From a virus (Duplodnaviria > Heunggongvirae > Uroviricota > Caudoviricetes): a stretch of DNA of 64,000 bases. The notes beneath the pieces are model-generated. The model worked only from the letters and a program-made list of their open reading frames with translations, searched no databases and was not told the DNA's origin. Positions 8,286 to 28,229 of this stretch are shown piece by piece. Within the stretch, counting starts at the first letter, position 1; every line of letters starts with the position of its first letter. Both the position numbers and the translations under genes were made by a program. Where the stretch lies: IMG/VR virus record IMGVR_UViG_3300035698_019136, positions 35,573 through 99,572 of that record, one strand, 5' to 3'.

Positions 8286-8648
8286 ATGGAAAAACCTATT
8301 ATAGAAGTTCATGATTTAATATTAGATAAACGCAAATTTGAGTTAAAAAGTGATATTGCCAGGTGGGAAAGACTCAAGCAATATGAAGAAACACTTGAAG
8401 AATTGATGAAAGAGTTGAGAAAGAGAATAGATGATGGGAAAGCAGGAACTCCAGATGTTCAAAGAATAATTACTAATGTAAGGGCAATAGAAGATTTTAT
8501 GGATCAAAAGAAAAAAGAGATTGTAAATTCTGATACAGATTATAAGAGATTAGTAGCTTATCTGAAGTCAAAATATCCAGAAGATTTGAAGAGAATGAAG
8601 ATAAGAATAGAGGGGAATCTTACTCATAAGGGAATTATAGTGAAATAG
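8286..8648 (+). CDS. hypothetical protein (positional candidate for small terminase subunit)
   Basis: 120-aa charged protein directly upstream of the large terminase. The call is positional only. Confidence 0.25.
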   Translation: MEKPIIEVHDLILDKRKFELKSDIARWERLKQYEETLEELMKELRKRIDDGKAGTPDVQRIITNVRAIEDFMDQKKKEIVNSDTDYKRLVAYLKSKYPEDLKRMKIRIEGNLTHKGIIVK

Positions 8649-8890
8649 ATGTTATATAATAACCTAGATTATGAATGTGATTATTGTGGCAAAGCTTGTG
8701 ACGGTACAACAAGCACAGAATGTGGTGATGTGTGCTGTTCTGAAGAATGTATGATTGAATATCTTAATGATATAGTTGCAAGTAGTCGCTAAATAGAAAT
8801 AGCAGAAAAGAGAATAAAAAGTGTTATGAAAAGACTAATATAAAGGAGAGTGGATATGTACTGAAAATTACATTAGAAGCACAAAGAGGA

Positions 8891-10495
8891 GTGAATCAGA
8901 TACTTACTAGTTATGCTATAGTGTGTGATGCACTGGATGAATCAGAAGCTGTAAGGGATATCAATGTTTTTTGTAATAAGATACTTAAAGATGAGAAAGG
9001 TAAGGTTGTTGAGCAAGGAGATATTCATGCTGCCTGGCATGCTCATATTAAATACTGCTGGGACAGGGGGTTACACCCTATTATTCTTGCGCCCTGGGGA
9101 CATGGTAAATCGGTTCAGATAGTCATTGGGTTCCCATTATTTTGGTTAGGGGCTCACCCAGAAGAAAGAGTAAAAATAATATGTAATTCAGATGAGAACG
9201 CAAAGGCTAGGGTCACAGCAGTTGCGAGATACATAGAACATGATCAAGAATACAGAAAGTTTTTTCCACAAGTAAGGAAAGATGAGAATGAAAGCTGGAC
9301 AAAGCATGAGATATTTATCGAAAGACCTCCTGGAGTTATGTCTGTTGATGCTTCTTTACAGGCTAAAGGAGTATTTAGCACAGGTATTGGTGGGAGAATA
9401 GATTTGGCATTGTTTGACGATATAGTAGACAGGAGAAATGCAATAGAACAGCCTGAGTTAAGAAAGAAACTTCCTAATACATTTCAGGATACTTGGATGT
9501 CAAGACTAGAGCCACAAGGACATACTGTATATATAGGAACTCCTTGGCATAAGGACGATAATACTCATGTTATTATGAAAGATCCTAATTTTTGTACTAT
9601 AAAACAGGAAATATCAGAGGACTTTGGGAGAATTAAAACATCATTATTGAATGTGCCAGATGATGAACATCCTTTATATAAGATGTATCGAAAGAGTTCA
9701 GATGGAAATTCCGATTATACTAATCTTCCTTTATGGTCTAAGAAATGGGACAAGAAAACATTAATTAGAATATGTGGGAAGACAGCTACATCTAAGAGGT
9801 CATTTCAATTTGGTTTTAGGTTAAAGCCTCTTACTGATACAGATTTGATGTATCCTAGTTTTAAGAAATGTATAAGGTATGGATTAGCTCCCAAAGATGT
9901 GGTAGGAAAAGATTGGCTGTATTATACCGGAGTAGATTTATCGACTAAGACAAGAGCTGGGAATGTGATATTTACGTTGGGTCATAATCCTTCAAAGAAT
10001 ATAAAGGTTCCAGTAGATATAAGAAAGGGAGCTTGGACTTCTCCTCAAGTTGCCCATGAATTATCTGAAGTAGATAGGATATGGTCTCCAGAGATATTCA
10101 CAGTAGAAACAAATTCTATGCAAACGACATTGGTTGAGTGGATACAAGAAGAATCGGGGCAGTATAAGTTTTGGGATAGAATTGTTAGTTATCAGACTCA
10201 AGGGGATGTTAAAAGAGCTGAAGACGGATTGCCAGCAATGGAAGTAGAGTTTTCTAATGGGGGTTGGCAGATACTTATAGAGGAAGAGCATGATATAACT
10301 TGCGATTGTGGGTGGTGTACTTGGATAAGTGAAATGAATAGTCATCCATTTGCAGATAATATGGATACAATTATGGCTAGTTGGTTTGCTAGAGAAGGAT
10401 GCAAGATGGGGATAGCAGAAGAGTATTATGAGGAGTGGATCAATCCAGCAGAAGCTGGAATATTTGAAGTTCCATTAGATGATTTTGAGGGGTAA
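8891..10495 (+). CDS. terL: terminase large subunit
   Basis: Walker A-like LAPWGHGKS and Walker B LALFDDIVD in the N-terminal ATPase. The acidic C-terminal nuclease-like region includes TVETNSMQ. GTG start follows AGAGGA. Confidence 0.8.
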   Translation: MNQILTSYAIVCDALDESEAVRDINVFCNKILKDEKGKVVEQGDIHAAWHAHIKYCWDRGLHPIILAPWGHGKSVQIVIGFPLFWLGAHPEERVKIICNSDENAKARVTAVARYIEHDQEYRKFFPQVRKDENESWTKHEIFIERPPGVMSVDASLQAKGVFSTGIGGRIDLALFDDIVDRRNAIEQPELRKKLPNTFQDTWMSRLEPQGHTVYIGTPWHKDDNTHVIMKDPNFCTIKQEISEDFGRIKTSLLNVPDDEHPLYKMYRKSSDGNSDYTNLPLWSKKWDKKTLIRICGKTATSKRSFQFGFRLKPLTDTDLMYPSFKKCIRYGLAPKDVVGKDWLYYTGVDLSTKTRAGNVIFTLGHNPSKNIKVPVDIRKGAWTSPQVAHELSEVDRIWSPEIFTVETNSMQTTLVEWIQEESGQYKFWDRIVSYQTQGDVKRAEDGLPAMEVEFSNGGWQILIEEEHDITCDCGWCTWISEMNSHPFADNMDTIMASWFAREGCKMGIAEEYYEEWINPAEAGIFEVPLDDFEG

Positions 10496-10500
10496 TAATT

Positions 10501-10761
10501 ATGGATGATTGGGGAAAAGTAAAATATTTTTTTATTATTTTTGGGATATGTTTTTTGCTTAGTTGCAATAATGATGCAGAATTAAGAATTCTACATAAGA
10601 CTGCTGATTTAGGATTCAGTAAAGGTGTAAATGTGGGAATGAAAGCAGTGATGGACAGACTAGATAAAAAGAAGGATTGGGATGTTATAGAAAGGGAGCA
10701 AGAGATGTGTAGGCAAAATATGCACATTGAATTAGATAAGATAATATGGACAAAGAACTAA
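10501..10761 (+). CDS. putative lipoprotein (signal peptide with lipobox-like LLSC)
   Basis: N-terminus MDDWGKVKYFFIIFGICFLLSCNN. Confidence 0.35.
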   Translation: MDDWGKVKYFFIIFGICFLLSCNNDAELRILHKTADLGFSKGVNVGMKAVMDRLDKKKDWDVIEREQEMCRQNMHIELDKIIWTKN

Positions 10762-11064
10762 TTGAGAAGATGACTGACGAAGAGTGGGTATTGGAGCATG
10801 TAATGGGAAGAGCAAAAAGAATACGAGATATAAAAAAGTGTTCTTTCTATTTGTGGTTTAAGGAATTAGAGAAAGATAAAAATGCTGTCAAAAGAATTAA
10901 TAAAAAGAAGATTTAAGATACTAAAAGCTGAAGATATTTTTAGTCAAAAGAATATTGATAAAAGTATGACGTTTGAAAAGTTTTTAGAAATAAGAAAGAA
11001 TAGCATGAAATTTGTACCAATAGAAGATTTTATAAATAATGAAAGATATGGAGGTGAATAATAA

Positions 11065-12585
11065 TTGATAGGATTAGAAATAATACAGACGAAGTATAAA
11101 ATATGGCGTGAACAGGAAAGGTTAGAGTTAAGATCAATTGAATTAGCAAAGAAACAATTGGATGAGGCTGCTACTTATGCTCAAAGAGATGATGATGCTG
11201 GTTGGGACATGCTTTCTTCTGCTTCGAGGAGTAATATAGGGGATGTTTTATCAGAAGACTCTTCAGATGCTTCAAGAACTCAAAGTAGGAAGTTTGCAAG
11301 ATGGAATCCTCATGCTAGAGGTATATTGAGAAATCTAGTAAAGTTTGTTATAGGTAGAGGATTAACATTTGCCCCTAAGTTCCCTAAAGAAGTTTCTGAT
11401 AAAGTTAAGAAGCAGTGGATGGATCATTGGGATAAGTGGGTGAAGGCTGAGAAGTTTTTAAAGAAACAGAAAGAATGTATTCGCAGGTTGACTAGAGATG
11501 GGGAATTCTTTTTGGAGATGATTGATAATTTAAAAAGTGGGTTCCCTAAAATTAGATTTTTAGAGCCTGGTAGGATTAAGAATCCTGCTGGATATGTTGA
11601 TGGGAAGTTAAATGGCAAGGTTTTAGCAGGGAATCTTTCTTATGGTATTGAAACATCTAAGAAAGATATTGAAAAGGTGCTTTACTATTATTATTGTAAT
11701 GATGATGGGACACTAAAAAGAAGAATATCTGCTAAGAATATAATACATAAAAAGCTCTTTGCAGATAGTGATAGGAAAAGAGGATTTCCATTTCTTGAAA
11801 CTCTGTTATTTGATTTAAAGTCTTATAGAGAGTGGTTAAAAGATAGAATTATATTGAATAAGATTAGAACAGCTATAGCTTTGGTTAGGGAAGTTCAACC
11901 TGGAGTAGGAACAAAGTCTCAGATAAAAAGTCTTAGAGATGCTACAAAGGCTACAATTCCAGGAACAAAGTCTACTAAACTTCAAGTTCCAGAAGCAGGG
12001 ACTATGCTAACATCTAAAGGATTTACATATAAGTTTCTCACTCCTAATTTAGCGGCTGAAGATAGTGCTCATGATGGTAGACATATCTTATTAAATATAG
12101 CAGCTGGGGCAGGTCTTGCTGAGTATATGGTAACAGGAGATGCTAGTAATGCAAATTATAGTTCTTCTATGGTAGCAGAAAGTCCGGCAGTAAAAGAGTT
12201 TGAGGACATCCAAGATGAATCTAAGGATGCTTATATAGAGATATGGGATAGGGTTATGGCTAATGCAAAGAAATCATCCAAAGATGTTCCTGATATGGAT
12301 GCTCCTACTTGTGATTTAACTTTCCCAGTTCTTATAGCAAGGGATATCAAGAAGGAAGCTGATGCTTTTACAGGATTGCATCAAGAAAGAATACAGTCAA
12401 GAAAAACAGCTAGAGGAAAATTAGGATTAAATAATGAGATAGAAGATAAGAATTTTGAGGATGAACTAAATGATGAAATGGAATGGAATGCTGTTATAAA
12501 TCCTGAGCCAGAAAAAGAGCCGGAAGAAAAACCAAAAAAAGAAGAGCCTAAAAAGAAAAAGCCAAAAGGTAATGAGGAAGAGTAA
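11065..12585 (+). CDS. portal protein
   Basis: 506 aa, immediately downstream of terL, with a K/E-rich C-terminal tail. The internal segment LNIAAGAGLAEYMVTGD is portal-like. TTG start. Confidence 0.7.
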   Translation: MIGLEIIQTKYKIWREQERLELRSIELAKKQLDEAATYAQRDDDAGWDMLSSASRSNIGDVLSEDSSDASRTQSRKFARWNPHARGILRNLVKFVIGRGLTFAPKFPKEVSDKVKKQWMDHWDKWVKAEKFLKKQKECIRRLTRDGEFFLEMIDNLKSGFPKIRFLEPGRIKNPAGYVDGKLNGKVLAGNLSYGIETSKKDIEKVLYYYYCNDDGTLKRRISAKNIIHKKLFADSDRKRGFPFLETLLFDLKSYREWLKDRIILNKIRTAIALVREVQPGVGTKSQIKSLRDATKATIPGTKSTKLQVPEAGTMLTSKGFTYKFLTPNLAAEDSAHDGRHILLNIAAGAGLAEYMVTGDASNANYSSSMVAESPAVKEFEDIQDESKDAYIEIWDRVMANAKKSSKDVPDMDAPTCDLTFPVLIARDIKKEADAFTGLHQERIQSRKTARGKLGLNNEIEDKNFEDELNDEMEWNAVINPEPEKEPEEKPKKEEPKKKKPKGNEEE

Positions 12586-13088: not shown

Positions 13089-14174
13089 ATGCCTAAAGAT
13101 GTAAATCAACAGATATTAGATAGCATTCTCAGACATCTGCACTTTGTTAGAGCATATGAGAATCATATTTTGAAGAGTGAGATCCTTCCTATTCTTGTGA
13201 AAGCCAAGAAGGATATGCTGAAGAAGTATAATGATTTTGGCAAGAGAATAGGAAGGAAGAATCTCAATAGATTGACAAAGCAAGAAAGAGCAATGCTGGG
13301 TGTAAAGATGAGAGAGCTTGATGGGCTTATTAAGGTGGCAAACAGTAAGATATCAGGTGTAATGGATAAGAGACTTCTTCCTTTTGCTAAGTCAGAGGAG
13401 AAACTTTATCGTGGACTTATTTCAGATGCATTTCCTATTAGTCTTGGATTGAATAGACTTCCATTAGAGCAGTTGAAAAAATTAGTAGATGAACCATTGG
13501 GGGGACATAAGTATGCTGATAGATTGAAGAAGAATTATGGGGATGCTGTAGCAACAATGAAAACAGAAATTGGTGCTGGGATACTGAAGGGTGAGAGTAT
13601 GGTTCAAGTAAGGAATAGACTTATTGGAGTAGGGAAAGGAATGGGGGGGAAAGTAGGATTATTGATAGGGGACAGAGCTATAATGATAGCACGTAGTGAA
13701 ATTATGAGAGTGTCTAATGCTGTTAATGATCAGATTTATCGTGCGAATCAGGATATACTTAAAGGAGTTCAATGGGTTGCAACATTGGACTCCCGTACGT
13801 GCCCCCAATGCTCAATTCTTGATGGCAATGTGTATGATTATAGCAAAGGGGAAAGAGCACCTATAAGACCTCTTCATGTTTTTTGCCGTTGTGTTGTAGT
13901 AGGAATAACCAAGTCATGGAAAGAGTTAGGGGATGATAGCAAGATGGCAAAGCAGATGGATAAATTAGATCCAGGCTTACGAGCTACTATGTCAGGATAT
14001 GTTCCTGCTAAAGTGAAATATCCTACATGGTTTAATGCTCAGCCGGACAGTTTTAAAAGAAAAGTATTAGGCCCAGGTAGATTTGCATTGTATAAGAGTA
14101 AGGGATTATCTTACAATAGAATGGTTAAGAACGGTAGATGGATCACATTAAAGGATTTAGCTAAACTAAGATAA
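13089..14174 (+). CDS. head morphogenesis protein, SPP1 gp7 / Mu F family
   Basis: Hallmark motif ATLDSRTCPQCSILDGNVYD (D-x-RTC...C...DG). Position after the portal is typical. Confidence 0.75.
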   Translation: MPKDVNQQILDSILRHLHFVRAYENHILKSEILPILVKAKKDMLKKYNDFGKRIGRKNLNRLTKQERAMLGVKMRELDGLIKVANSKISGVMDKRLLPFAKSEEKLYRGLISDAFPISLGLNRLPLEQLKKLVDEPLGGHKYADRLKKNYGDAVATMKTEIGAGILKGESMVQVRNRLIGVGKGMGGKVGLLIGDRAIMIARSEIMRVSNAVNDQIYRANQDILKGVQWVATLDSRTCPQCSILDGNVYDYSKGERAPIRPLHVFCRCVVVGITKSWKELGDDSKMAKQMDKLDPGLRATMSGYVPAKVKYPTWFNAQPDSFKRKVLGPGRFALYKSKGLSYNRMVKNGRWITLKDLAKLR

Positions 14175-16673: not shown

Positions 16674-16674
16674 G

Positions 16675-16818
16675 GAATTATCCTATCGTTTTTAGTTTCG
16701 GAATTATCCTATCGTTTTTAGTTTCGGAATTATCCTATCGTTTTTAGTTTCGGAATTATCCTATCGTTTTTAGTTTCGGAATTATCCTATCGTTTTTAGT
16801 TTCGGAATTATCCTATCT
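16675..16818. repeat. tandem direct repeat, 26-bp unit GGAATTATCCTATCGTTTTTAGTTTC x5.5 (iteron-like)
   Basis: Five perfect head-to-tail copies plus a partial copy are read directly. Shorter CATACCTAT repeats and an A9 run follow. Confidence 0.9.
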
Positions 16819-16834
16819 ATATCATACCTATTAG

Positions 16835-16851
16835 ACCTATCATACCTATCA
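16835..16851. repeat. inverted-repeat arm ACCTATCATACCTATCA (partner at 23091-23107)
   Basis: Read directly; part of the CATACCTAT short-repeat tract. Confidence 0.8.
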
Positions 16852-17026
16852 TACCTATTGATACCTATCAAAAAAAAATACAAAAAAGTTTGATAATAAA
16901 ACTGGGCATATTACCGGTGATTATGTAAACTAACTACATAAAATAATAGTTTAAGTGCATGTTATTATTATAATAATAGGTGTTTTAGTGTGTCATATTA
17001 TTGGCACTTTCGCCAGAATATTGACA

Positions 17027-17055
17027 TTGACATAACATATTGGTATTATTATAAT
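17027..17055 (+). promoter_or_regulatory. consensus sigma-A promoter TTGACA-17 nt-TATAAT (tandem TTGACATTGACA -35)
   Basis: Exact -35 and -10 hexamers with 17-nt spacing are read in the sequence. Confidence 0.55.
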
Positions 17056-17165: not shown

Positions 17166-17207
17166 AGGGTTCTACTAACATAAACCTACAAAACAGGGGG
17201 AGAAATT

Positions 17208-17585
17208 ATGATTTATATAACAAACACATTTTCACCGTTAATGCTTAAAGATAAAGAAAATAACAATTTCAAGGGAAAAGAATATTCTTTAGAAGAGATT
17301 CAGGATTATATTGAATCTCTTTATGAGGATGGTAATCCAGAGGATATTGTTTCGGCAATATCACATGAGGTTACTGTCCCTTTGATCAATACCCTATTGG
17401 ACTTGCAATTAAAGTTTAATAGGGTATCTTTAGCTCTGGAACCGAATGATGTAGTACTTTGCATTATTCCCAAGTTCAGAGCCGAAAAGGCTAGAGAATT
17501 TACAAAAGAGGAGGTCGAACAGGCTGGTGTAAGATGTTTTAAGATTGTAATAGTAGCTAGTAAAATATATGTAAATTTTATATAA
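17208..17585 (+). CDS. hypothetical protein
   Basis: ORF with GGGGGAG RBS; first gene after the noncoding hub. Confidence 0.4.
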   Translation: MIYITNTFSPLMLKDKENNNFKGKEYSLEEIQDYIESLYEDGNPEDIVSAISHEVTVPLINTLLDLQLKFNRVSLALEPNDVVLCIIPKFRAEKAREFTKEEVEQAGVRCFKIVIVASKIYVNFI

Positions 17586-17610
17586 ACCATAAAACAGGGA
17601 GATAAAAAAA
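17583..17610 (+). promoter_or_regulatory. conserved intergenic cassette TAAACCATAAAACAGGGAG (stop + SD)
   Basis: One of about 14 near-identical elements between small genes. Confidence 0.5.
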
Positions 17611-17784
17611 ATGGATAAATTAGATAGGAAAATAGAGTGCATATTTATAGGTAAAGGATCTTGTGATTCCTGCGGGGAGTGTGAAAAAACAATAGAGGAA
17701 GATCTAGGAAGAAAAATTGATATAGGAAGTAAAGAGGAAGTGGACAAGTTAAGTAGAAATGAACTTTATAATTTATTAACATAA
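17611..17784 (+). CDS. small Cys-rich protein (CDSCGEC)
   Basis: 57-aa ORF not in the track, directly after the cassette. Confidence 0.35.
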   Translation: MDKLDRKIECIFIGKGSCDSCGECEKTIEEDLGRKIDIGSKEEVDKLSRNELYNLLT

Positions 17785-17814
17785 CCCCTCCCCAGAGGGA
17801 AAAGGAGCCAACAA

Positions 17815-18006
17815 ATGGCATATCAAAAAGAAGTAAAAAACATCGATGAAGTGTTGGAAATATTAAAAAAGATAGGAGTGAAATATTTAACAGTTAATAA
17901 AATAGATAATTCCATGTTTTGGCATGGCATAGCATTTTATGGGCCTGATAGTTTCCAAGTTGCATACTATGACGAAGAGAAAGAAATTATAAATATAAAA
18001 GCTTGA
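17815..18006 (+). CDS. hypothetical small protein
   Basis: ORF with AAGGAG RBS. Confidence 0.35.
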   Translation: MAYQKEVKNIDEVLEILKKIGVKYLTVNKIDNSMFWHGIAFYGPDSFQVAYYDEEKEIINIKA

Positions 18007-18228
18007 CAAAAAAACAGTACTATGATTAAGTAAACTTAAACCATAAAAAATAGGGAGATTAAAACTATTAAAAAAACAGGAGAAAAGATAATAGGTAGAA
18101 TAAATGGCAAGAGAGCAAAACTTTCTAAAAAGAGATGGTTAAAATTAATGGATAATAAGAATAACCATATTAGTTTTAAAGAAGATTAAATAAACTTAAA
18201 CCATAAAAAATAGGGAGGGCAAAAAGTA

Positions 18229-18327
18229 ATGAGATTATCAAGAGTTATAAAGATTTTAGGGAATAGAAGACGGTCACAGTTCGGAGTGAGAAAAAGACGG
18301 AAAAGAGTTAAAGGAAGAAAAAAATAA
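18229..18327 (+). CDS. tiny highly basic protein (32 aa, R/K-rich)
   Basis: ORF after a perfect copy of the cassette TAAACTTAAACCATAAAAAATAGGGAGG. Confidence 0.25.
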   Translation: MRLSRVIKILGNRRRSQFGVRKRRKRVKGRKK

Positions 18328-18359
18328 TATAAACTTATAAAAATAGGAGATATAAGACT

Positions 18360-18935
18360 ATGGAAACTACTGATATAAAAAAACTAAAAGAAGTAAGCAA
18401 GGCATCAGCAACTAGAATACAAAACAATGGAATACTAGAAAATGTATATATTGATACAAATAAAACTCTAGTCAACAATAATATAGTAGATAGTGGACCA
18501 GGCGAAGCACTAGCTATAGGATGCGATGGACATATATTAGCTATGACGTCCATTGAGGTTGAAATTAATGGCAGTAGTAATGTCCAGATTCCAGCAGTAT
18601 TATTGGGAAAGTTTAAAGAGAGTAAAAATGGGGCAAATAACATAAGCATAACCCCGGATGACACTCGGCCGAATGATAGGAAAATTAGTATATTAAATAA
18701 AGAAGGCTGTCGGACTATACCATTAGATTATTTCGGAGAGTTTCCAGATTATGAAAAGGCAGTACCATCAGCTGATGGAGTTGTAAAAATTGGGTTAAAT
18801 GTTACTGTATTGAAAAAACTTCTCAGTTGCTTTAGCAAAGATGAAGTTATAACATTGTATGTCAAGGATGAGAGATCCCCGGTGTTAGTTACCGGGCAAG
18901 AAAAAACTGGTGTTATAATGCCTTGTAAAATATAA
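18360..18935 (+). CDS. hypothetical protein
   Basis: 191-aa ORF after the cassette TAAACTTATAAAAATAGGAGA. Confidence 0.4.
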   Translation: METTDIKKLKEVSKASATRIQNNGILENVYIDTNKTLVNNNIVDSGPGEALAIGCDGHILAMTSIEVEINGSSNVQIPAVLLGKFKESKNGANNISITPDDTRPNDRKISILNKEGCRTIPLDYFGEFPDYEKAVPSADGVVKIGLNVTVLKKLLSCFSKDEVITLYVKDERSPVLVTGQEKTGVIMPCKI

Positions 18936-18959
18936 ACTTATAAAAATAGGAGAGAGATT
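18933..18959 (+). promoter_or_regulatory. conserved intergenic cassette TAAACTTATAAAAATAGGAGAGAGATT
   Basis: The identical element recurs at 19399-19424. Confidence 0.5.
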
Positions 18960-19400
18960 ATGGACAAAGTAATAAATATAGGGAAACAATCAACATATGG
19001 TGGCAGGAAATATAATGTATACTGTCATATAAAGTACAATGCTTGCAGGTTATCAATTTCAGGAGTGGAAGGACCTCTAATAAGTGGAAGAGCTTTGGGT
19101 AGTTGCGGGCAAATTATAGACGGTTGCTATTGGGATATAATTGAGCTAGACAAGGACTGGACTCCTAACATGCTAAAGAATTTCCTGGAAATATGGGATA
19201 AATGGCATTTAAACGATATGCATGCTGAATGTGAGCATCAAGAGGCGTTAGGAATTACATGTAGAACAGATCCTTGTGCAACTTGTCCTGTTTGTGGTTA
19301 TAAGTTAGGTAGTGGATGGACTGTCAGAGAAGTTCCTCAAGATGTAATTGACTTTCTCTTTTCCCTTCCTCTATCAACTAAAACACCAGATTGGTTTTAA
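18960..19400 (+). CDS. Cys-rich protein
   Basis: Multiple Cys/His: CHIKYNAC, CGQIIDGC, CATCPVCGYK. Confidence 0.4.
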   Translation: MDKVINIGKQSTYGGRKYNVYCHIKYNACRLSISGVEGPLISGRALGSCGQIIDGCYWDIIELDKDWTPNMLKNFLEIWDKWHLNDMHAECEHQEALGITCRTDPCATCPVCGYKLGSGWTVREVPQDVIDFLFSLPLSTKTPDWF

Positions 19401-19424
19401 ACTTATAAAAATAGGAGAGAGATC

Positions 19425-19601
19425 ATGAAATGGAAATTGACATATTATGAGTGGTATTTAAGAGAATCAGCAACAATTTACTTGTCAAGCAAAGGAGGAG
19501 TACTGAAGTTTATTGAGGAAAAGGGAGAGGGGCAAATAATGTCGTATACTGAGGTGGATGGAGATATAGAACCTTATGAATTCCAAAAAGAGGAGATATA
19601 A
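19425..19601 (+). CDS. hypothetical small protein
   Basis: 58-aa ORF after the cassette; not in the track. Confidence 0.3.
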   Translation: MKWKLTYYEWYLRESATIYLSSKGGVLKFIEEKGEGQIMSYTEVDGDIEPYEFQKEEI

Positions 19602-19604
19602 ATA

Positions 19605-20273
19605 ATGATTGATATAGATAACTTAGTTATCGAGGTCACAAGACGATGCAATATGTTATGTCCTCATTGTTTGAGGGGAGATCAACAGGAGAAAGATATA
19701 TCTTTTGAGGTATTACAAAAGATAGCTGACACGTTTGGTTATATTTCCACTATTGCATTTACTGGAGGGGAACCTTCTCTCAACTCCTGGGCAATAGATA
19801 AATTTATTGATTTATGCCGAAGTCAAGAAGTCGGTATAGGTAGCTTCTATATTGCTACTAATGGCAAAAAATATTCAGATAGATTTTTAAAATCATTAAT
19901 GAATCTATGGATATACTGTGATGATAACGAAGTAAGTCAAGTTACAGTGTCAAGATCGGACTTTCACGAAGATCAAGACGAAAGAGAAATCGAGAAAATC
20001 AAATGTTTTCGATTTGTAGATGAAAGAGAAAACCTCACAGAAAAGTATTTAATTGCCGAGGGTAGAGCGTTAGATAACTTTTATTGTAGAATAAATCGGG
20101 AACCTGATAAATTCGAGATAGAAGATGACCAGATTATTGGTGGTTCGCTATATATAACAGTTGATGGTGATATTATACCAGGCTGTGATTTTAGCTATGA
20201 TAGGATGGAGGAGGAAAAGGTAGGTAATATTTTAAAAGATGATATTATGGAAGTATTACCAATAGAAAACTAA
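19605..20273 (+). CDS. radical SAM enzyme (small, about 220 aa; NrdG/QueE-size class)
   Basis: CNMLCPHC (CxxxCxxC) near the N-terminus and a glycine-rich FTGGEPSL SAM-binding motif. Confidence 0.7.
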   Translation: MIDIDNLVIEVTRRCNMLCPHCLRGDQQEKDISFEVLQKIADTFGYISTIAFTGGEPSLNSWAIDKFIDLCRSQEVGIGSFYIATNGKKYSDRFLKSLMNLWIYCDDNEVSQVTVSRSDFHEDQDEREIEKIKCFRFVDERENLTEKYLIAEGRALDNFYCRINREPDKFEIEDDQIIGGSLYITVDGDIIPGCDFSYDRMEEEKVGNILKDDIMEVLPIEN

Positions 20274-20299
20274 ACCATAAAACAAGGGAGGTATAAATC
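20271..20299 (+). promoter_or_regulatory. conserved intergenic cassette TAAACCATAAAACAAGGGAGG
   Basis: Starts with the stop codon of the radical SAM gene. Confidence 0.5.
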
Positions 20300-20911
20300 A
20301 TGAGACAAGAAACAATTAATTTATACAAATTTGATGAATTATTAAAAGAATCTCAAGAGAAAGTTCTGGAAAGAATGGCCGATATCAATGTGGATTTCAA
20401 CTGGTGGGATTTCGAGGATGCAGAAACAATAGGATCTATAATGGGGATTGAAATAGATGACATTTATTTCAATGGGTTTGGTTCCCAGGGAGATGGGGCT
20501 TATTTTGAAGGGAATTATGAATATAGAAAAGGAAGTGTGAAAAAATTAAAGGCTTATGCTCCTGTAGATAGGGAATTACATAGAATCGTTGAAAGTCTTT
20601 TCAAATTGCAGAAAAGTAATCGATATAGGTTGCAAGCAATAATTAAACACAAAGGACATTTTCACAATGAAAATAGTACAGAAATAGAAGTATATCAATA
20701 TCAGGATAGTTATGGAGATCAATTCCTTATAAGATCGGGGCATTTTTCTTGTAATTATGAAGAGTTAAGAGAGCTGCTGCGGGATTTTATGCGATGGATA
20801 TATAAGCAGCTAGAAAAACAATATGAATATTTGACAAGCAAGGAAGGTATCATTGAAACGATAAAATCTAATGGTTATGAATTCCAGGCCAATGGCACTT
20901 TAGGCTATTAA
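20300..20911 (+). CDS. hypothetical protein
   Basis: 203-aa ORF. Confidence 0.4.
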   Translation: MRQETINLYKFDELLKESQEKVLERMADINVDFNWWDFEDAETIGSIMGIEIDDIYFNGFGSQGDGAYFEGNYEYRKGSVKKLKAYAPVDRELHRIVESLFKLQKSNRYRLQAIIKHKGHFHNENSTEIEVYQYQDSYGDQFLIRSGHFSCNYEELRELLRDFMRWIYKQLEKQYEYLTSKEGIIETIKSNGYEFQANGTLGY

Positions 20912-20935
20912 ACCATAAAACAAGGGGAGTATATT
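20909..20935 (+). promoter_or_regulatory. conserved intergenic cassette TAAACCATAAAACAAGGGGAG
   Basis: Same element as at 17583 and 20271. Confidence 0.5.
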
Positions 20936-21205
20936 ATGGGAAAGCAGACGTTTAGAGAGGGTGAGGCCTCACATTTTAATTCCTTGATAGGGCCGTGGGT
21001 TGAAAAGAACGGGTTAAAAGTAGATTGGAAGTTTAGAGAAGGAAGAGGAAGATGGAACAAGGGTAAAACAATAAGCTATTTTGTTATAACAGGGAAAGAT
21101 TATTATGGGGAATGGGGAAGTGATGCAATTGTAGAATTGAACGGGTTAGTAAATTCTTTCGGTGTTGATTATAGAGTAATAGGAAATTCTGTAATAGTGG
21201 AGTAA
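20936..21205 (+). CDS. hypothetical protein
   Basis: 89-aa ORF. Confidence 0.35.
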   Translation: MGKQTFREGEASHFNSLIGPWVEKNGLKVDWKFREGRGRWNKGKTISYFVITGKDYYGEWGSDAIVELNGLVNSFGVDYRVIGNSVIVE

Positions 21206-21237
21206 AGCCTAACTAAAAACAAGGGGAGGATAAGATC
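21206..21237 (+). promoter_or_regulatory. cassette variant CTAACTAAAAACAAGGGGAGGATAAGATC
   Basis: Variant family shared with 21403-21429. Confidence 0.45.
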
Positions 21238-21405
21238 ATGGATATAATCAACAAAACAGCACGTTATATATACTCATTTTATGGCAGTCAAGATTATGGA
21301 GAAAAGGTTAGTGAATATAGTAGTCTATTGGCTTTTATAATAAATGAGAGGGAGGACATAATTAAAAAAGTGTTGACATATACAATTGAACAATATAACA
21401 TCTAA
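21238..21405 (+). CDS. hypothetical small protein
   Basis: 55-aa ORF not in the track. Confidence 0.3.
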   Translation: MDIINKTARYIYSFYGSQDYGEKVSEYSSLLAFIINEREDIIKKVLTYTIEQYNI

Positions 21406-21429
21406 TTAAAAACAAGGGGGGATAAGATT

Positions 21430-21750
21430 ATGAAAAAACAAGAATATAAAGACTACCAAGAGAAAGTAAGCAAGTTTTTTAAACGTGAAGGGATCAACAA
21501 TCTATCTCTTGCAGTGTCAGAAGATGACACAATTTGTCCAGGTTGTGATAATGAGCAAAGCTTTGAGCCTTCATTTAGTTATTGGCCTTGCGATTGCTGT
21601 AATAGGGATCTTGGAGGCGATCGTTATCACTGCTCTGGTTATAACCCGGAAACTGAAGAGATTTATTGTTATTATGTATGCCCAGATTGTCTATATTATG
21701 CTGAGTACGGGATGCTTGATGATATGACTATGATGGAAATGGAAGAATAA
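21430..21750 (+). CDS. Cys-rich protein (MKKQEY...)
   Basis: CPGCDN...CDCCN...CPDC motifs. Confidence 0.4.
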   Translation: MKKQEYKDYQEKVSKFFKREGINNLSLAVSEDDTICPGCDNEQSFEPSFSYWPCDCCNRDLGGDRYHCSGYNPETEEIYCYYVCPDCLYYAEYGMLDDMTMMEMEE

Positions 21751-21779
21751 CTAACTAAAAGGAAAGGGAGGACAAGATT
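21748..21779 (+). promoter_or_regulatory. cassette variant TAACTAACTAAAAGGAAAGGGAGGACAAGATT
   Basis: Repeated almost exactly at 21942-21975. Confidence 0.45.
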
Positions 21780-21941
21780 ATGACATTAGTACAATTCATA
21801 AGGGAGAATAGAGAAGAGATTGACAAGGGGATTAAAAGGGTAGTACCTAACTGTAAGTTGAATGATGGAGAAAGGAGGGAATGGGTGATGAATGACGAAG
21901 GACTCTATAATTGGGCAAGAAGTGAGGGAGTGAAGATATAG
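21780..21941 (+). CDS. hypothetical small protein
   Basis: 53-aa ORF not in the track. Confidence 0.3.
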   Translation: MTLVQFIRENREEIDKGIKRVVPNCKLNDGERREWVMNDEGLYNWARSEGVKI

Positions 21942-21975
21942 GGTAACTAACTAAAAGGAAAGGGAGGATAAGATT

Positions 21976-22143: not shown

Positions 22144-22594
22144 AGATAAGCAGTATAGAAAAAGTTCTTTACTATTTGTTAAAAATACTATATAATAGAT
22201 ATATAGGGTATAGAACAAGAGAACATAATACAAATATTAAAATGTATGAATAGAGGAGGTATAAAATGAAGTAGAACAAAGCTAAGAAGTATTGGGGAAT
22301 AGAATGTATATAGGAGTGCTAGAATTAAGTTTTTAGCACTCTTATTTGTTGATATGTGCTATATAGGCGATAAAATAAATTATAGACTATAGAGGGAGAG
22401 TATGGAGTCATGACTTGATAAGAGTCAAGATATAATATATAATAGATATATAGAGTGCAAAAATACAGGGTATTATAATAAGAGTAGAGGACAACATGAA
22501 CAGAAAAATGAGCGAACTTCTTAAACCTTTTTTAAACAAAGGCTCTAATAAGAGTATTATAGCACTACAATGATACTACAATAGGAGTGTAATA

Positions 22595-22795
22595 ATGGGT
22601 AGATCAATAAAGGGTAATTGGGAATACAAGGGAGACAGAGAAGTATACACAAACAGGGTACTACACTATATTTTAACTAATGGCCTACAACTAAGTGATT
22701 TCCTCAGAGATATAAAGTATAAGGGTGTCATATTACCAGACAAATTAGTTACGGGCCTTTATGAGAGATTGACAGCTAATCCACTAAATGAATAG
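22595..22795 (+). CDS. hypothetical protein, tandem paralog 1 (WEYKGDRE-YTNRV-HYI)
   Basis: About 70% identical to the next ORF. Confidence 0.4.
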   Translation: MGRSIKGNWEYKGDREVYTNRVLHYILTNGLQLSDFLRDIKYKGVILPDKLVTGLYERLTANPLNE

Positions 22796-23012
22796 GAGTG
22801 CAATAATGGGGAAACCAAAAGAGAAAATACATAAGAGTGACTGGGAATACAAGGGAGATAGGGAAGAGTATACAAACAGGGTTATGCATTATATTATAGC
22901 TAATGGCTTGCAATTAGGGAAGTTCTTAGCTGATATAGAATATAAGGGTATTATATTGCCAGACAAATTGATCAAGGGTATCAAGGCCAGGCTATCATCT
23001 AACCCTTTATAA
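22788..23012 (+). CDS. hypothetical protein, tandem paralog 2
   Basis: Paralog of 22595-22795; also shares the upstream AATAGGAGTG(T/C)AATAATGG. Confidence 0.4.
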   Translation: MNRSAIMGKPKEKIHKSDWEYKGDREEYTNRVMHYIIANGLQLGKFLADIEYKGIILPDKLIKGIKARLSSNPL

Positions 23013-23085
23013 ATTCCAGGTCTCTCAGGCTCCTGGTCTCTCAGGCTCCAAGTCTTGCGGGACGGGCAAAGTCTGGAGGACTGAG
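23013..23085 (+). other. GC-rich structured element with direct repeat GGTCTCTCAGGCTCC x2 (terminator/RNA element candidate)
   Basis: A locally GC-rich segment in an AT-rich genome, immediately after the paralog pair. Confidence 0.35.
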
Positions 23086-23090
23086 AGGTA

Positions 23091-23107
23091 TTGATAGGTA
23101 TGATAGG
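23091..23107. repeat. inverted-repeat arm TGATAGGTATGATAGGT (partner at 16835-16851)
   Basis: Exact reverse complement of ACCTATCATACCTATCA at 16835-16851. Confidence 0.8.
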
Positions 23108-23510
23108 TAGCCCTACCCTAGTGGAAAAAATTAATTTTTTTGTAGTGGTTCAGTACCTAGCTCTTAATTATAACCAAATTTTTAGGCCATTTTCTATAAG
23201 TACATGAGATTATTAGACTTTTATGCCTCACAAAAACTTAATAGATTCATAGGAGATAAGTTATGATAGCACCAGGAATAATAGTAGCGATATTAGTAAC
23301 AGTGATAGGAATAGCAATGATAGTTGCATTTAATAAAGAATAGAAAAGAGGTTGTATAAATGAGTATAGTTAGTAAAAAAGTGTGGGGTTTTTTGGACTT
23401 TGGGTATAGATAAGTATAGTTGAGTATAAGAACTAGTAAAAAAACATCAGTTTGCTATAAAAAACAGTCTTAAATATGTAATTTTATTAAATAAAAAGGG
23501 GTGATACAAA

Positions 23511-25230: not shown

Positions 25231-26271
25231 ATGAAAGAGATTTTCGAAGCTGGAATGGATTTTAATCAGCTGAAAAGAAAGGTTCAAGAGATTGGTGATC
25301 CCGATCAAGCTTGTAAGGTTATTATAGAAGATATCAATTCGGGCAAACTTCCTGTGAATAAATGTTCTATCAGGGATATGTTTGAAGCGTTGACTACTTC
25401 TACTTTTCCCAAGGCTGTAGGTGCTCTTATTAATAAGAGTGTTATGTCCGGTTATGATTCTGTTGATACTATTGGTGATCAGTTAGTAGAAATTGTTCCG
25501 AGTAATAAGATGACTGAGACAGTTGTTGGTTTTGATGAGGTTGATACTCCTGATATCGTATTGGAAGGTATGCCTTATGGAGAAACTGGATTCGGTGAAA
25601 AATATGTAACCATGAAGAACATCAAACGTGGTCGTATTATATCTATTACTGAGGAAACAATTAAATTTGACCAGACAGGTCAGGTTATTCAGAAAGCTAA
25701 ATTAATCGGTGAAAAGTCCGCATTGAAAAGAGAGCAACTGATTGTTGAGGGTGTTATTGATAAAAATAGTACTGTCTATAAACCTGGTGGTATTGCCACA
25801 GCATTGTACCGAACAGGTACTCCTGCGAATAGTGTTACTACAGTTCTTGGTGAGGCTGGATTGGATGCTGTTGAGGCTTTAGTTGCTGCTATGACAGATG
25901 GTAATGGTGATAAGATTATGATAAATCAGGGTAATATGATAATCCTTACTGGACAAACATTGAAGAGACAGGCATGGGAACTTATGAATTCCCCTATGAC
26001 TTCTGAATCTGCTGATGGAGCGAAGAGTTATTTCAAGGGTATGTATACTCAGAAATATTCTCCGTTTATAACCAGTGCGACTAATTATTTTATCGGTGAT
26101 TTCAAAAAGGATTTTTGGTGGACTGAAGTTTATCCACTGCAACTCATGAAAAGAAAGATGATCGATACAGATGAGGGTTTTAAAAGGGATATTATTGCTC
26201 AGTTTAAAGCAAGATTTTATGGTACGATAGGCGCTGTTGATTATAAACATAGTTTTAAGGGCGGTGCTTAA
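25231..26271 (+). CDS. major capsid protein (HK97-fold candidate)
   Basis: 346 aa, downstream of the protease/scaffold, followed by a terminator-like hairpin. The composition is typical of a major capsid protein. Confidence 0.55.
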   Translation: MKEIFEAGMDFNQLKRKVQEIGDPDQACKVIIEDINSGKLPVNKCSIRDMFEALTTSTFPKAVGALINKSVMSGYDSVDTIGDQLVEIVPSNKMTETVVGFDEVDTPDIVLEGMPYGETGFGEKYVTMKNIKRGRIISITEETIKFDQTGQVIQKAKLIGEKSALKREQLIVEGVIDKNSTVYKPGGIATALYRTGTPANSVTTVLGEAGLDAVEALVAAMTDGNGDKIMINQGNMIILTGQTLKRQAWELMNSPMTSESADGAKSYFKGMYTQKYSPFITSATNYFIGDFKKDFWWTEVYPLQLMKRKMIDTDEGFKRDIIAQFKARFYGTIGAVDYKHSFKGGA

Positions 26272-27231: not shown

Positions 27232-27910
27232 TTCTAAATGGGAAACAGCTACTCTATTCAGTTACCAACAAATCAGTCCAGATAAAAATGTAATAGCTAT
27301 TAGGCATGATATAGATGATAAAGTAGATGTTGCTAAAAAAATGGCTTTATTAGAGCATGATATGAATATATATTCTACTTATTTTCTTCTAACTACCCAT
27401 CCTTATTATGAGGAAGGGATATATTATGCAAATTATTTATACCAGTTGGGTCATGAAGTGGGGTTACATCTTGATTTGGCTATTGTGTCCGCTGTTGGGA
27501 AATTGAATGCTCACCAGTATATAATGGATAAACTTTTAGAATTAGGAAAAATGGATATTGAGGTAAAAGGGGTGTCTTCTCATGGTTCTGAATTGGCGAG
27601 GGTGATGAAATTTAAAGGGTGGCAATATTTTTATGACTATGCTGAAAGAGAATATGCTATTCATTTTGAAGATGAGAAAGGGGGGTTTTTAACTCTTACT
27701 ATGGGGATTCATCCTCTAGCGGAGTATGGATTAACTTATGAGGCTATTAAATTAGAGAAACCTAATTATATTAGTGATTCTCATGGGGAAATAAGGATAA
27801 ATAGAGATTTAAAAGATCCTCCGAATACTGAGGAGGAACTATTTGATTTTATAGAGAATGGGACTGGTAAGACTATAATGTTACTCCATCCACAATATTA
27901 TGAGGTATAG
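27197..27910 (+). CDS. hypothetical protein, possible carbohydrate esterase/deacetylase-like
   Basis: IAIRHDIDD and HxxxxH patterns give only a weak resemblance. Confidence 0.25.
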   Translation: MRYQELLKKIADSKWETATLFSYQQISPDKNVIAIRHDIDDKVDVAKKMALLEHDMNIYSTYFLLTTHPYYEEGIYYANYLYQLGHEVGLHLDLAIVSAVGKLNAHQYIMDKLLELGKMDIEVKGVSSHGSELARVMKFKGWQYFYDYAEREYAIHFEDEKGGFLTLTMGIHPLAEYGLTYEAIKLEKPNYISDSHGEIRINRDLKDPPNTEEELFDFIENGTGKTIMLLHPQYYEV

Positions 27911-28149: not shown

Positions 28150-28229
28150 GTATTTCTATAAATGATCCCAGAGCAGAAGATTTGGTAAGACTATAATGTT
28201 ATTCCATCCACAATATTATGAGGTGTAAA

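What the first reader, a model, noticed from the sequence alone, without database searches (positions are those of the whole stretch)
17583..21975. Family of about 14 conserved intergenic cassettes (stop codon + ACCATAAAACAAGGGAGG-type SD) separating small genes
Each small gene in 17.5-22.1 kb is preceded by a 25-32-bp element that begins with the previous gene's stop codon. Subfamilies cluster by position: TAAACCATAAAACA(A)GGGAG (17583, 18031, 18191, 20271, 20909); TAAACTTATAAAAATAGGAGAGAGAT (18329, 18933, 19399); CTAACTAAAAACAAGGGGAGGATAAGAT (21206, 21403); TAACTAACTAAAAGGAAAGGGAGGAYAAGATT (21748, 21942). Two copies 160 bp apart (18031 and 18191) are identical over 27 bp or more. This points to gene-plus-spacer units multiplying by local duplication and exchanging by recombination at the conserved spacer. 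That pattern is a signature of rapidly evolving accessory or anti-defence gene arrays. The element may also be an RNA-processing or translational-coupling site.
Basis: seen in the sequence. Interest (0 to 1): 0.65.

Follow-up and report, generated by a model that had tools for sequence, protein, structure and literature searches.

The report
Repeated stop-RBS spacers in phage operon
A 5-kb operon of about 16 unrelated small genes in an uncharacterised AT-rich phage uses near-copies of one 27-32-base spacer (stop codons, an A-rich tract, a strong ribosome-binding site) in front of almost every gene; the repeat is real, but it is a kind of feature already seen in other phages' early-gene modules.

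Summary
Thirteen of 15 gene starts between 17181 and 21976 carry a related 27-32-nt element, TAA(A)C(C/T)(A/T)T-AAAA(C/A)A-GGGAG-N5-11-ATG. A fourteenth (g19605) keeps only the SD half. With the SD held fixed, the remaining positions are far more alike than composition-matched shuffles (z = 12-18 upstream, z = 8 downstream). A profile finds no other copy in the 64 kb.

The element is unstructured. Its GGGAG sits at Shine-Dalgarno distance from each start, and 9 of 12 spacers close all three reading frames. The spacers lie in what looks like one transcription unit, from a consensus sigma-70-type promoter (17027-17055) to a terminator-like hairpin (22310-22345), inserted between head genes.

The 15 proteins are unrelated to each other, so gene-plus-spacer duplication is not supported. 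Only the spacers are homologous. Their similarity falls with distance along the array, and hybrid forms sit between the blocks they combine. One 40-codon ORF without a canonical start is flanked by 27-nt perfect direct repeats. This fits local copying or recombination between spacers, but no relative long enough to test it was found.

SPO1's host-takeover module shows a weaker family of the same kind, and Cluster K mycobacteriophage SASs are analogous. Verdict: a new member of a known kind, of moderate to low interest.

The parts
17021..17055 (+). Two overlapping sigma-70-type promoter matches (TTGACA-17-TATTAT and TTGACA-17-TATAAT, 11/12 and 12/12) upstream of the operon
   Evidence: sequence
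17181..17207 (+). E1, TAAACCTACAAAACAGGGGGAGAAATT, in the 5' UTR of the first gene g17208 (STIV B116-like). No gene lies upstream.
17583..17610 (+). E2 (A type), TAAACCATAAAACAGGGAGATAAAAAAA. Its TAA is the stop of g17208. It precedes g17611.
17785..17814 (+). Non-member spacer before g17815: CCCCUCCCCAGAGGG hairpin followed by AAAGGAG
   Evidence: MFE -12.9 kcal/mol, z = -2.5
18031..18066 (+). E3 (A/B hybrid), TAAACTTAAACCATAAAAAATAGGGAG... It precedes an open 40-codon frame (18067-18189) that has ATT where the family has ATG.
18191..18228 (+). E4 (A/B hybrid). Its first 27 nt are identical to E3. It precedes g18229 (32-aa arginine/lysine-rich peptide).
18330..18359 (+). E5 (B type), TAAACTTATAAAAATAGGAGATATAAGACT, precedes g18360. 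The real stop of g18229 is at 18325.
18933..18959 (+). E6 (B type), TAAACTTATAAAAATAGGAGAGAGATT. Its TAA is the stop of g18360. It precedes g18960.
19398..19424 (+). E7 (B type), 97% identical to E6. Its TAA is the stop of g18960. It precedes g19425.
19585..19604 (+). Partial member: AAAAAGAGGAGATATAA (16/17 identical to the SD half of E5). It lies inside the 3' end of g19425 and precedes the radical SAM gene g19605 (gap of 3 nt).
   Evidence: (D19)
20271..20299 (+). E8 (A type), TAAACCATAAAACAAGGGAGGTATAAATC. Its TAA is the stop of g19605. It precedes g20300 (phrog_5162).
20909..20935 (+). E9 (A type), TAAACCATAAAACAAGGGGAGTATATT. Its TAA is the stop of g20300. It precedes g20936.
21203..21237 (+). 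E10 (A/D hybrid), TAAAGCCTAACTAAAAACAAGGGGAGGATAAGATC, with stops in all three frames. It precedes g21238.
21402..21429 (+). E11 (A/D hybrid), CTAATTAAAAACAAGGGGGGATAAGATT, precedes g21430. Identity with E13 continues through the first five codons (ATGAAAAAACAAGAA).
   Evidence: (D4)
21748..21779 (+). E12 (D type), TAACTAACTAAAAGGAAAGGGAGGACAAGATT. TAACTAACTAA places a stop in each of the three frames. It precedes g21780.
21944..21975 (+). E13 (D type), 97% identical to E12, precedes g21976, the last gene. The real stop of g21780 is TAG at 21939.
22310..22345 (+). Intrinsic-terminator-like hairpin with a T-run, about 170 nt after the last gene

Best explanation
The elements are copies of one portable intercistronic translation-initiation cassette. 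They lie in a single polycistronic operon of unrelated small accessory genes, probably early and transcribed by host RNA polymerase.

Each cassette has three modules:
1. A stop module (TAAAC.., or TAACTAACTAA) that ends translation from upstream, usually in all three frames.
2. An unstructured A-rich tract that runs into a strong Shine-Dalgarno sequence (GGGAG/GGGAGG).
3. A 5-11-nt A/T-rich spacer before ATG.

Each cistron therefore gets its own strong, structure-free ribosome entry site. That site does not depend on the frame or identity of its neighbour. This differs from the ATGA-type overlap coupling used elsewhere in this genome.

The cassettes resemble one another by descent, not by convergence. 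Sequence has been copied between spacers, mostly between neighbours, by homologous recombination or gene conversion, or by insertion of ORF-plus-spacer units. As a by-product the 27-34-nt repeats can serve as crossover points for gain, loss and replacement of single ORFs.

Shown: the repeat family, its confinement to this operon, its geometry, its lack of structure, the unrelatedness of the genes, and the distance dependence and mosaicism of the spacers.

Inferred: SD function, a single transcript, early timing, and recombination as the copying mechanism.
For: - Family and statistics.
- Geometry: the TAA-to-SD distance is 13-16 nt and the SD-to-start distance is 5-11 nt in all 13. Total length is 27-32 nt.
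- Structure: the TIR windows (-30..+20) are essentially unstructured, MFE mostly 0 to -2 kcal/mol.
- SD strength: duplex energies with a Firmicutes-type anti-SD average -9.9 kcal/mol, against -8.0 for other genes (not significant).
- Frames: 9 of 12 spacers close all three frames, against 3.7 +/- 1.5 in shuffles.
- E1 carries the TAA module although no gene precedes it.
- Transcription unit: one 12/12 promoter lies upstream, one terminator-like hairpin lies downstream, and promoter-like hits are not in excess inside.
- The genes are unrelated.
- Similarity decays with rank distance.
- Mosaic spacers: E3/E4 lie between the A and B blocks, and E10/E11 between the A and D blocks.
- Perfect 27-nt direct repeats flank one 133-nt unit.
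- Same kind elsewhere: the SPO1 host-takeover module has a family ACCAAGATTGTAAAAGGAGAGGTTA before at least 8 genes. L004 and L010, which carry g20300 homologues, have their own spacer families.
Against: - No transcript or ribosome data exist, so SD use, the single transcript and early timing are inferences.
- The SD strength and low structure of these TIRs are not significantly different from other genes of the window (p = 0.11 and 0.05). Translation efficiency alone therefore does not explain why positions outside the SD are conserved.
- The conserved C residues (TAAAC, AAAAC) stand out in a strand with only 10.8% C. They have no assigned role and could mark a binding or cleavage site.
- The three-frame-stop enrichment rests on related, non-independent spacers.
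- Recombination is inferred from within-genome patterns only. No strict four-gamete violation was seen, and no relatives were available.
Confidence: 0.6

Rival explanations
1. The element is the recognition site of a trans-acting factor on the mRNA. This could be a translational repressor or an endoribonuclease, working like T4 RegA or RegB (which cuts GGAG in early-gene SDs), or a host RNase. Such a factor would switch off or process the whole early operon together.
For: - Positions outside the SD are conserved (z = 12-18), including rare C residues.
- The family is confined to one operon. That is what a regulon-specific operator would look like.
- SAS elements in Cluster K phages raised the same possibility (PMC3203893).
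Against: - The distance between TAAAC and GGGAG varies (13-16 nt), and the D type lacks TAAAC altogether.
- The subfamilies differ at many positions, and similarity tracks genomic distance, as expected from copying rather than uniform constraint.
- No RegA, RegB or other RNA-binding Pfam family was found among about 70 ORFs scanned. The phage probably extends beyond the window, and small ORFans could not be assessed.
Confidence: 0.15
2. Each element is a promoter for a phage-specific RNA polymerase or sigma factor (one promoter per small gene), with transcription starting at GGGAG as in T7/T3-class promoters (...TATA/GGGAGA).
For: - There is a superficial resemblance between ...AAAAATA|GGGAGA and T7/T3 ...CACTAT(A)A|GGGAGA (from memory of those consensus sequences, not tested).
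- Promoter-per-gene arrays exist. In L002 more than 20 small genes each have TTGAC-N17-TATAAT directly before ATG.
Against: - The largest ORF in the window is 667 aa, a beta-helix protein, so no single-subunit RNAP is encoded here.
- A Mor-type activator of host RNAP is present.
- Spacing inside the element is not rigid.
- GGGAG lies at SD distance from every start.
- None of the roughly 90 other genes has the motif.
- The spacers contain no sigma-70-type hexamer pairs.
Confidence: 0.05
3. The array arose by tandem duplication of gene-plus-spacer units. The genes have since diverged beyond recognition while selection kept the spacers.
For: - Neighbouring spacers are the most alike.
- The same window shows that tandem gene duplication does happen (22610-23005).
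Against: - No pair of the 15 proteins is detectably related.
- They range from 32 to 222 aa and include different domain families: B116-like, radical SAM/SPASM and clamp-like.
- The units bounded by the identical 27-mers show no residual similarity. If spacers 100% identical over 27 nt were copied with their genes, the genes should still be recognisably alike.
Confidence: 0.04
4. There is no family. The similarity is what any set of strong SDs in an AT-rich genome would give.
For: The A-rich composition (37% A, 11% C on this strand) inflates chance identity. Ordinary arrays such as L044 show AAAAGGAGA at most starts.
Against: The shuffle controls with the SD fixed, the comparison with 87 other starts of the same genome, and the comparison with L044, L007 and SPO1 arrays all place this cluster well above background.
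Confidence: 0.01

Closest known systems
Start-Associated Sequences (SAS) of Cluster K mycobacteriophages (Pope et al. 2011, PMC3203893)
   Same: - A short asymmetric repeat containing the SD core.
- One orientation only.
- Located a few nt upstream of the start codons of 11-19 genes of different families.
- Restricted to the non-structural part of the genome.
- Sometimes contains the upstream gene's stop codon.
- Conserved at positions that cannot pair with 16S rRNA; function unproven.
   Different: - Different sequence (GGGATAGGAGCCC, 13 bp, GC-rich, tightly conserved), against a 27-32-nt A-rich element with four positional subtypes here.
- SASs are scattered over half a genome and conserved across subclusters. 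Here all copies sit in one 5-kb operon and no relatives are known.
- About half of the SASs have an extended inverted-repeat part (ESAS). Nothing comparable is present here.
[quoted passage not shown]
   Same: - An array of small, mostly ORFan early genes in a Firmicutes phage, with promoters and RBSs typical of highly expressed genes (PMC6873191).
- Read directly from NC_011421, at least 8 of 24 genes share an extended leader ACCAAGATTGTAAAAGGAGAGGTTA-N3-5-ATG that includes a TAA just upstream of the SD.
   Different: - SPO1 uses about 12 short operons, each with its own promoter, and the conserved leader mostly follows a promoter. Here one promoter serves about 16 cistrons and the element is intercistronic.
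- Conservation is higher here: mean pairwise 17.1 vs 14.7 of 32, and nearest-neighbour matches up to 31 vs 26.
- There is no sequence similarity between the two families.
PeSL (promoter-early stem-loop) cassettes of T4-type phages (Arbiol et al. 2010, PMC2839356; PMC4122927)
   Same: Short conserved regulatory cassettes flank non-essential ORFan genes in plastic regions. Recombination between neighbouring copies inserts, deletes and replaces single ORFs and can release mini-circles. The 27-nt perfect direct repeats around one small ORF here are the configuration such an event would leave.
   Different: PeSLs are a sigma-70-like promoter plus a terminator stem-loop, acting on transcription. The elements here have neither and act, if at all, on translation. 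Recombination at PeSLs was shown experimentally and by comparing phi1 with RB49. Here it is only inferred.
Integron gene-cassette arrays (attC sites)
   Same: Promoterless, unrelated, same-orientation ORFs sit downstream of one promoter, separated by a family of related short elements.
   Different: attC sites are 57-141-bp imperfect inverted repeats that fold as single strands and need an IntI integrase (established knowledge). The spacers here are 27-32 nt, lack inverted repeats and are unstructured. No integrase was seen among the ORFs scanned.

Membership tests
Cluster K SAS | 13-bp consensus GGGATAGGAGCCC (up to 2 deviations) | tested here: not met
   The consensus here is TAAAC(C/T)(A/T)TAAAA(C/A)A..GGGAG; there is no GGGNNNNNNNCCC frame.
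Cluster K SAS | Asymmetric, one orientation, 3-7 bp upstream of start codons (mostly ATG), contains the SD core, associated with non-structural genes of different families | tested here: met
   All 13 are on the + strand. The SD lies 5-11 nt before the start. Twelve starts are ATG and one is ATT. The downstream genes are unrelated.
SPO1-type host-takeover module TIRs | Cluster of small early genes with consensus host-type promoters and strong, mutually similar RBS leaders | tested here: met
   12/12 promoter; 15-16 genes of 32-222 aa; conserved TIRs. SPO1 was measured with the same metric. Early timing itself was not tested.
SPO1-type host-takeover module TIRs | Sequence homology to the SPO1 leader or genes | tested here: not met
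   The leader families differ. blastn and tblastn against 50,697 phage records gave no Herelleviridae match.
PeSL cassettes | Strong sigma-70-like promoter inside each cassette | tested here: not met
   No promoter-like hexamer pair lies within any spacer. The nearest (21373-21401, 10/12) ends at the edge of E11. Hits in the region are not in excess of shuffles.
PeSL cassettes | Stem-loop terminator inside each cassette | tested here: not met
   TIR windows fold at about 0 to -2 kcal/mol. There are no + strand terminator hits between genes.
PeSL cassettes | Insertion, deletion and replacement breakpoints between related genomes fall in the cassettes | not testable with these tools
   No relative covering this operon is in INPHARED, IMG/VR, JGI metagenomes, GTDB genomes or the 5.8-billion-protein index.
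Integron attC | 57-141-bp imperfect inverted repeat (R''-L''...L'-R') folding as a hairpin, with a GTTRRRY core | tested here: not met
   The elements are 27-32 nt, have no inverted repeats (inverted list) and are unstructured.
Integron attC | Adjacent intI tyrosine recombinase | tested here: inconclusive
   No integrase family was found among about 70 ORFs scanned with Pfam or PHROGs. Not every ORF of the window was scanned, and the genome extends beyond it.
T7-class single-subunit RNAP promoters | Rigid ~23-bp consensus, and a phage-encoded RNAP of about 800-900 aa | tested here: not met
   Internal spacing varies by 3 nt. The largest ORF in the window is 667 aa, a beta-helix protein. An RNAP outside the window cannot be excluded.

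The most novel reading that the evidence does not exclude
The operon is a phage gene-capture platform. The ~27-nt 'three-frame stop plus RBS' linker would be the selected crossover site at which promoterless ORFs are inserted, excised (as ORF-plus-linker circles) and swapped between co-infecting phages. Every captured ORF would then be expressed at once, whatever its frame. This would be a translational counterpart of T4 PeSLs or integron cassettes, and a concrete example of the 'linker' sequences postulated in the modular theory of phage evolution.
Probability: 0.15. Interest if true: 0.6.

Novelty: new member of a known kind. Interest (0 to 1): 0.3.

Why it matters
If the spacers are only strong, insulated ribosome entry sites, this is a tidy natural example of a modular 'stop in every frame plus RBS' design. 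It could be useful as a part for expressing genes in low-GC Firmicutes, but it is biologically ordinary.

If they also serve as crossover points, they would show how phages assemble and turn over arrays of small host-takeover or counter-defence genes without dedicated recombinases. Each newcomer would be expressed immediately. This process has so far been documented mainly for promoter-terminator cassettes in T4-like phages.

The operon also marks 15-16 small ORFan proteins as candidates for early, highly expressed effectors. They include a widespread family (g20300, phrog_5162) that has a confident predicted structure and no match in the PDB.

Tried and rejected
Searches for relatives, all without a usable result:
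- blastn of the region against 50,697 phage records gave only two 70-80-nt chance-level hits.
- Exact and degenerate motif scans of IMG/VR gave singletons at about the chance rate, and no locus had more than one copy.
- Protein-anchored scans of IMG/VR, JGI metagenomes and GTDB genomes used g20300, the minor head protein and the portal. They gave only distant homologues of g20300, or contigs of 1.7-3 kb that stop short of the operon.
- g18360 has no homologue at all in the 5.8-billion-protein index. The exact g20300 protein is not on record.
- The comparative test for cassette shuffling therefore could not be done.

Other checks:
- Paralogy among the operon's proteins, and between the two 160-bp units: rejected.
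- Structured RNA: rejected.
- tRNA or Rfam families in the region: none.
- Block origin from composition: GC and GC3 per gene do not separate the spacer blocks.
- A shared TAAACCATA(A/G)AA between this window and L007 (two copies): judged too short and A-rich to count as homology.
- Function of g20300 by structure: the AlphaFold2 model is confident (pLDDT 91.6), but the best Foldseek E-value against the PDB is 0.78. This was not pursued further.

Full report
**Context**

The window is 33% GC, with strong strand asymmetry (A 37%, T 30%, G 22%, C 11%). Almost all ORFs are on the + strand. It encodes a large terminase (8891-10495), a portal (11065-12585), an SPP1 gp7/Mu F-type head morphogenesis protein (13089-14174) and a capsid/protease-like protein (25231-26271). 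It also encodes a Mor-family transcription activator and a large glycan-biosynthesis cluster from about 29 to 62 kb. It is a tailed-phage genome without close sequenced relatives. The head morphogenesis protein is at most 30% identical to anything in 50,697 phage records.

**The observation**

Between 17.2 and 22.1 kb lie 15 ORFs of 32-222 codons, plus one open frame with a non-canonical start. Elsewhere in the window neighbouring genes mostly overlap by 4 nt or lie 1-5 nt apart. Here the gaps are 24-39 nt.

The multiple alignment shows that 13 of the 15 upstream regions share the pattern TAA(A)C(C/T)(A/T)T-AAAA(C/A)A(A/T)-GGGAG(G)-N5-11-ATG. The 27-nt exact identity between 18031-18057 and 18191-18217 is correct.

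**Is it more than chance?**

Three controls say yes.
- The mean best ungapped identity of the cluster's upstream 32-mers is 17.1. Random sets of 14 other starts from the same genome give 13.4 +/- 0.42 and never exceed 14.9.
It gives z = 17.9 for the stop-to-SD part (12.1 if the TAA is also fixed) and z = 8.3 for the SD-to-start part.
- A profile HMM built from the 13 copies finds no further copy on either strand of the 64 kb.

Ordinary arrays of small phage genes score at background on the same metric: L044 at 13.7 and L007 at 15.3.

**Corrections to the description**

- The TAA of the element is the true stop codon of the preceding gene in only 7 of 13 cases. In the others the real stop lies a few nucleotides upstream.
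- The first copy (17181) lies in the 5' UTR of the first gene, with no gene before it. The TAA is therefore part of the element.
- Two starts are not members. g17815 has a CCCCUCCCC...GAGGG hairpin spacer. g19605 is 3 nt from its neighbour and keeps only the SD half of the B-type element, now inside the coding end of g19425 (D19).

**Anatomy**

- The TAA-to-SD distance is 13-16 nt, the SD-to-start distance is 5-11 nt, and the total length is 27-32 nt.
- The -30..+20 windows are essentially unfolded, mostly 0 to -2 kcal/mol. Rfam and ARAGORN find nothing here.
- Nine of 12 spacers carry stops in all three frames, against 3.7 +/- 1.5 in composition-matched shuffles. TAACTAACTAA, present twice, is a stop in each frame. 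Because the spacers are related, this count is descriptive rather than a test.
- A 12/12 sigma-70-type promoter lies at 17027-17055 and a terminator-like hairpin at 22310-22345. Promoter-like hits inside are not in excess, and none lies within a spacer.
- The simplest reading is one transcript of about 5.3 kb with about 16 cistrons, inserted between head genes.

**What the spacers separate**

The proteins are unrelated to each other (best BLASTP E = 0.02). Recognisable domains are STIV B116-like (g17208), radical SAM/SPASM (g19605), a weak sliding-clamp-like C-terminal region (g18360) and phrog_5162 (g20300); the rest are ORFans.

The two units bounded by the identical 27-mers show no residual similarity in DNA or protein. 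A genuine tandem duplication 500 nt downstream of the operon (22610-22782 vs 22833-23005) is 72% identical across gene and TIR. That is what gene-plus-spacer duplication looks like in this genome. Only the spacers are homologous.

**How the spacers are related**

- Similarity falls with rank distance along the array (Spearman -0.54, permutation p = 0.0004). Adjacent pairs score 16.4 against 10.3 overall.
- I split each spacer into stop module, A-tract/SD module and SD-to-start module. This shows mosaics.
  - E3/E4 combine a B-type prefix and middle with the A-type AACCAT, and lie between the A block (E1-E2) and the B block (E5-E7).
  - E10/E11 have the A-type middle (AAAACAAGGGGAG, as in E9) with D-type flanks, and lie between E8-E9 and E12-E13.
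  - The A-type stop module is identical in E2, E8 and E9, on either side of the B block.
[quoted passage not shown] The exception is E11/E13, where it continues through five codons (D4).
- These patterns fit sequence being copied between spacers, preferentially between neighbours. They also fit ORFs being replaced between spacers.
- The 40-codon frame 18067-18189 is open, has ATT where the family has ATG, and is bracketed by 27-nt perfect repeats. It is the configuration expected from integration of an ORF-plus-spacer unit by a single crossover. It is equally the substrate for its deletion.
- None of this is proof. No strict incompatibility between modules was found, and no related genome covers the operon.

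**Most likely mechanism**

The cassette is a self-contained intercistronic translation unit. It terminates whatever is being translated upstream, presents an unstructured A-rich landing site and a strong SD, and starts the next ORF. Expression of each cistron therefore does not depend on its neighbours.

I put about 0.9 on the SD/TIR function itself. I put about 0.6 on the whole statement, which includes similarity by descent through recombination-type copying.

The main rival is a trans-acting RNA-binding or RNA-cleaving factor that recognises the extra conserved positions, including C residues that are rare on this strand. I give it 0.15. It is weakened by the variable internal spacing and the subtype divergence.

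A phage-RNAP promoter reading gets 0.05. The element ends in ...ATA/GGGAGA like T7-class promoters. However, the window has no RNAP-sized ORF, it does have a Mor-type activator, and the GGGAG always sits at SD distance.

**Comparison with known systems**

- Cluster K mycobacteriophage Start-Associated Sequences share the logic (SD-containing, start-proximal, one orientation, unrelated non-structural genes, sometimes holding the upstream stop) but not the sequence.
- The SPO1 host-takeover module is described as small early genes with promoters and RBSs typical of highly expressed genes. Read directly, it shows a leader family ACCAAGATTGTAAAAGGAGAGGTTA before at least eight genes. That is the same kind of feature, less conserved and promoter-proximal rather than intercistronic.
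- T4-type PeSLs are the documented case of regulatory cassettes that mediate ORF shuffling. They are promoter-terminator units, which these spacers are not.
- Integron attC membership fails on length, symmetry and structure.
- Other phages that carry homologues of g20300 have their own start-associated families: L004 has TAAGCCGTAAAC... four to five times, and L010 has ACCCGAWGTRAGGGAACC-ATG four times. L002 has a promoter directly before each of more than 20 small genes.
- Repeated regulatory cassettes in small-gene arrays therefore look common, and this case is a clear but unsurprising instance.

**Verdict**

The feature is real, well above chance and confined to one operon. It is best read as a family of portable stop-plus-RBS cassettes that have been copied among themselves. 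Gene duplication is not supported. Recombination at the spacers is plausible but untested. An anti-defence role is unproven. I rate it a new member of a known kind, with interest 0.3.

Noticed in passing
window 16674-16870, 23082-23109, 31683-31705: Directly upstream of the operon's promoters lies a perfect 26-bp tandem repeat (GGAATTATCCTATCGTTTTTAGTTTC, about 5.5 copies). It is followed by five 9-10-bp iterons, (T/G)ACCTAT(C/T)(A/G). An inverted copy of the iteron block lies 6.2 kb away, just after the operon, and another at 31.7 kb. The operon is thus bracketed by inverted iteron blocks. They could be an origin, a partition site or operator arrays.
   Followed up: partly
window 18067-18189 (and 18022-18033): An open 40-codion frame follows a perfect family spacer but has ATT where the family has ATG, at 9 nt from GGGAG. 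There is no in-frame ATG/GTG/TTG before codon 28. It is either a rare ATT-initiated gene or a cassette that recently lost its start. [quoted passage not shown]
   Followed up: partly
window 17785-17814: The one intergenic spacer in the array that is outside the family has an anti-SD-like CCCCUCCCC that forms a hairpin with GAGGG immediately after the upstream stop (-12.9 kcal/mol for 17770-17830, z = -2.5). The same sequence scores as a terminator on the minus strand.
   Followed up: partly
window 22595-23012: Two tandem paralogous genes of about 66-74 aa (72% DNA identity over 173 nt). Each has the TIR AATAGGAGTG(T/C)AATAATGGG. This is a genuine gene-plus-spacer duplication next to the operon.
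   Followed up: partly
window 22168-22345 and 22415-22500: Two copies of a promoter-like box (TATATAATAGATATATAG). The first is followed by about 110 nt without a convincing ORF and then the terminator hairpin, so it may be a small RNA. There is no Rfam match.
   Followed up: no
window 29206-62112: A long run of overlapping genes includes glycosyltransferases, two B12-binding radical SAM enzymes, a further radical SAM, UDP-galactopyranose mutase, a GNAT/FemAB-like protein and a 667-aa beta-helix protein. This is an unusually large glycan-biosynthesis cluster for a phage.
   Followed up: no
window 20300-20911 (g20300, phrog_5162): A widespread phage family: 46 homologues at E <= 0.001 in the protein index and 49 phage records, including the terminal repeats of jumbo Caulobacter phages. 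In metagenomic contigs it lies next to ArdC-like, DUF932 and SSB genes. The AlphaFold2 model is confident (pLDDT 91.6, pTM 0.84), but there is no significant Foldseek match in the PDB.
   Followed up: partly
L002 (IMGVR_UViG_3300031857_000303), 160-12450: More than 20 consecutive small genes are each preceded by TTGAC-N17-TA(t/a)AAT ending 6-8 nt before ATG, with no SD. This looks like a promoter-per-gene array, apparently with leaderless mRNAs.
   Followed up: no
L004 6350-8890; L010 5847-9155: Other phages carrying g20300 homologues have their own start-associated repeat families: TAAGCCGTAAAC...(A)GAGGT-N-ATG (4-5 copies) and ACCCGAWGTRAGGGAACC-ATG (4 copies).
   Followed up: partly
window 4659-4723 vs 5051-5115; 27865-27909 vs 28183-28227; 5794-5844 vs 7510-7575: Further local repeats: two genes share a 94%-identical 5' end (MDKSKTHIAMADCPEIQ...), a 45-nt repeat is 96% identical, and a 42-nt inverted repeat (90%) brackets 1.7 kb.
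   Followed up: no
window 49096-49167: A tRNA-like gene (Rfam tRNA, 53.8 bits) for which ARAGORN reports an abnormal anticodon loop ('tRNA-???', anticodon 'tg').
   Followed up: no
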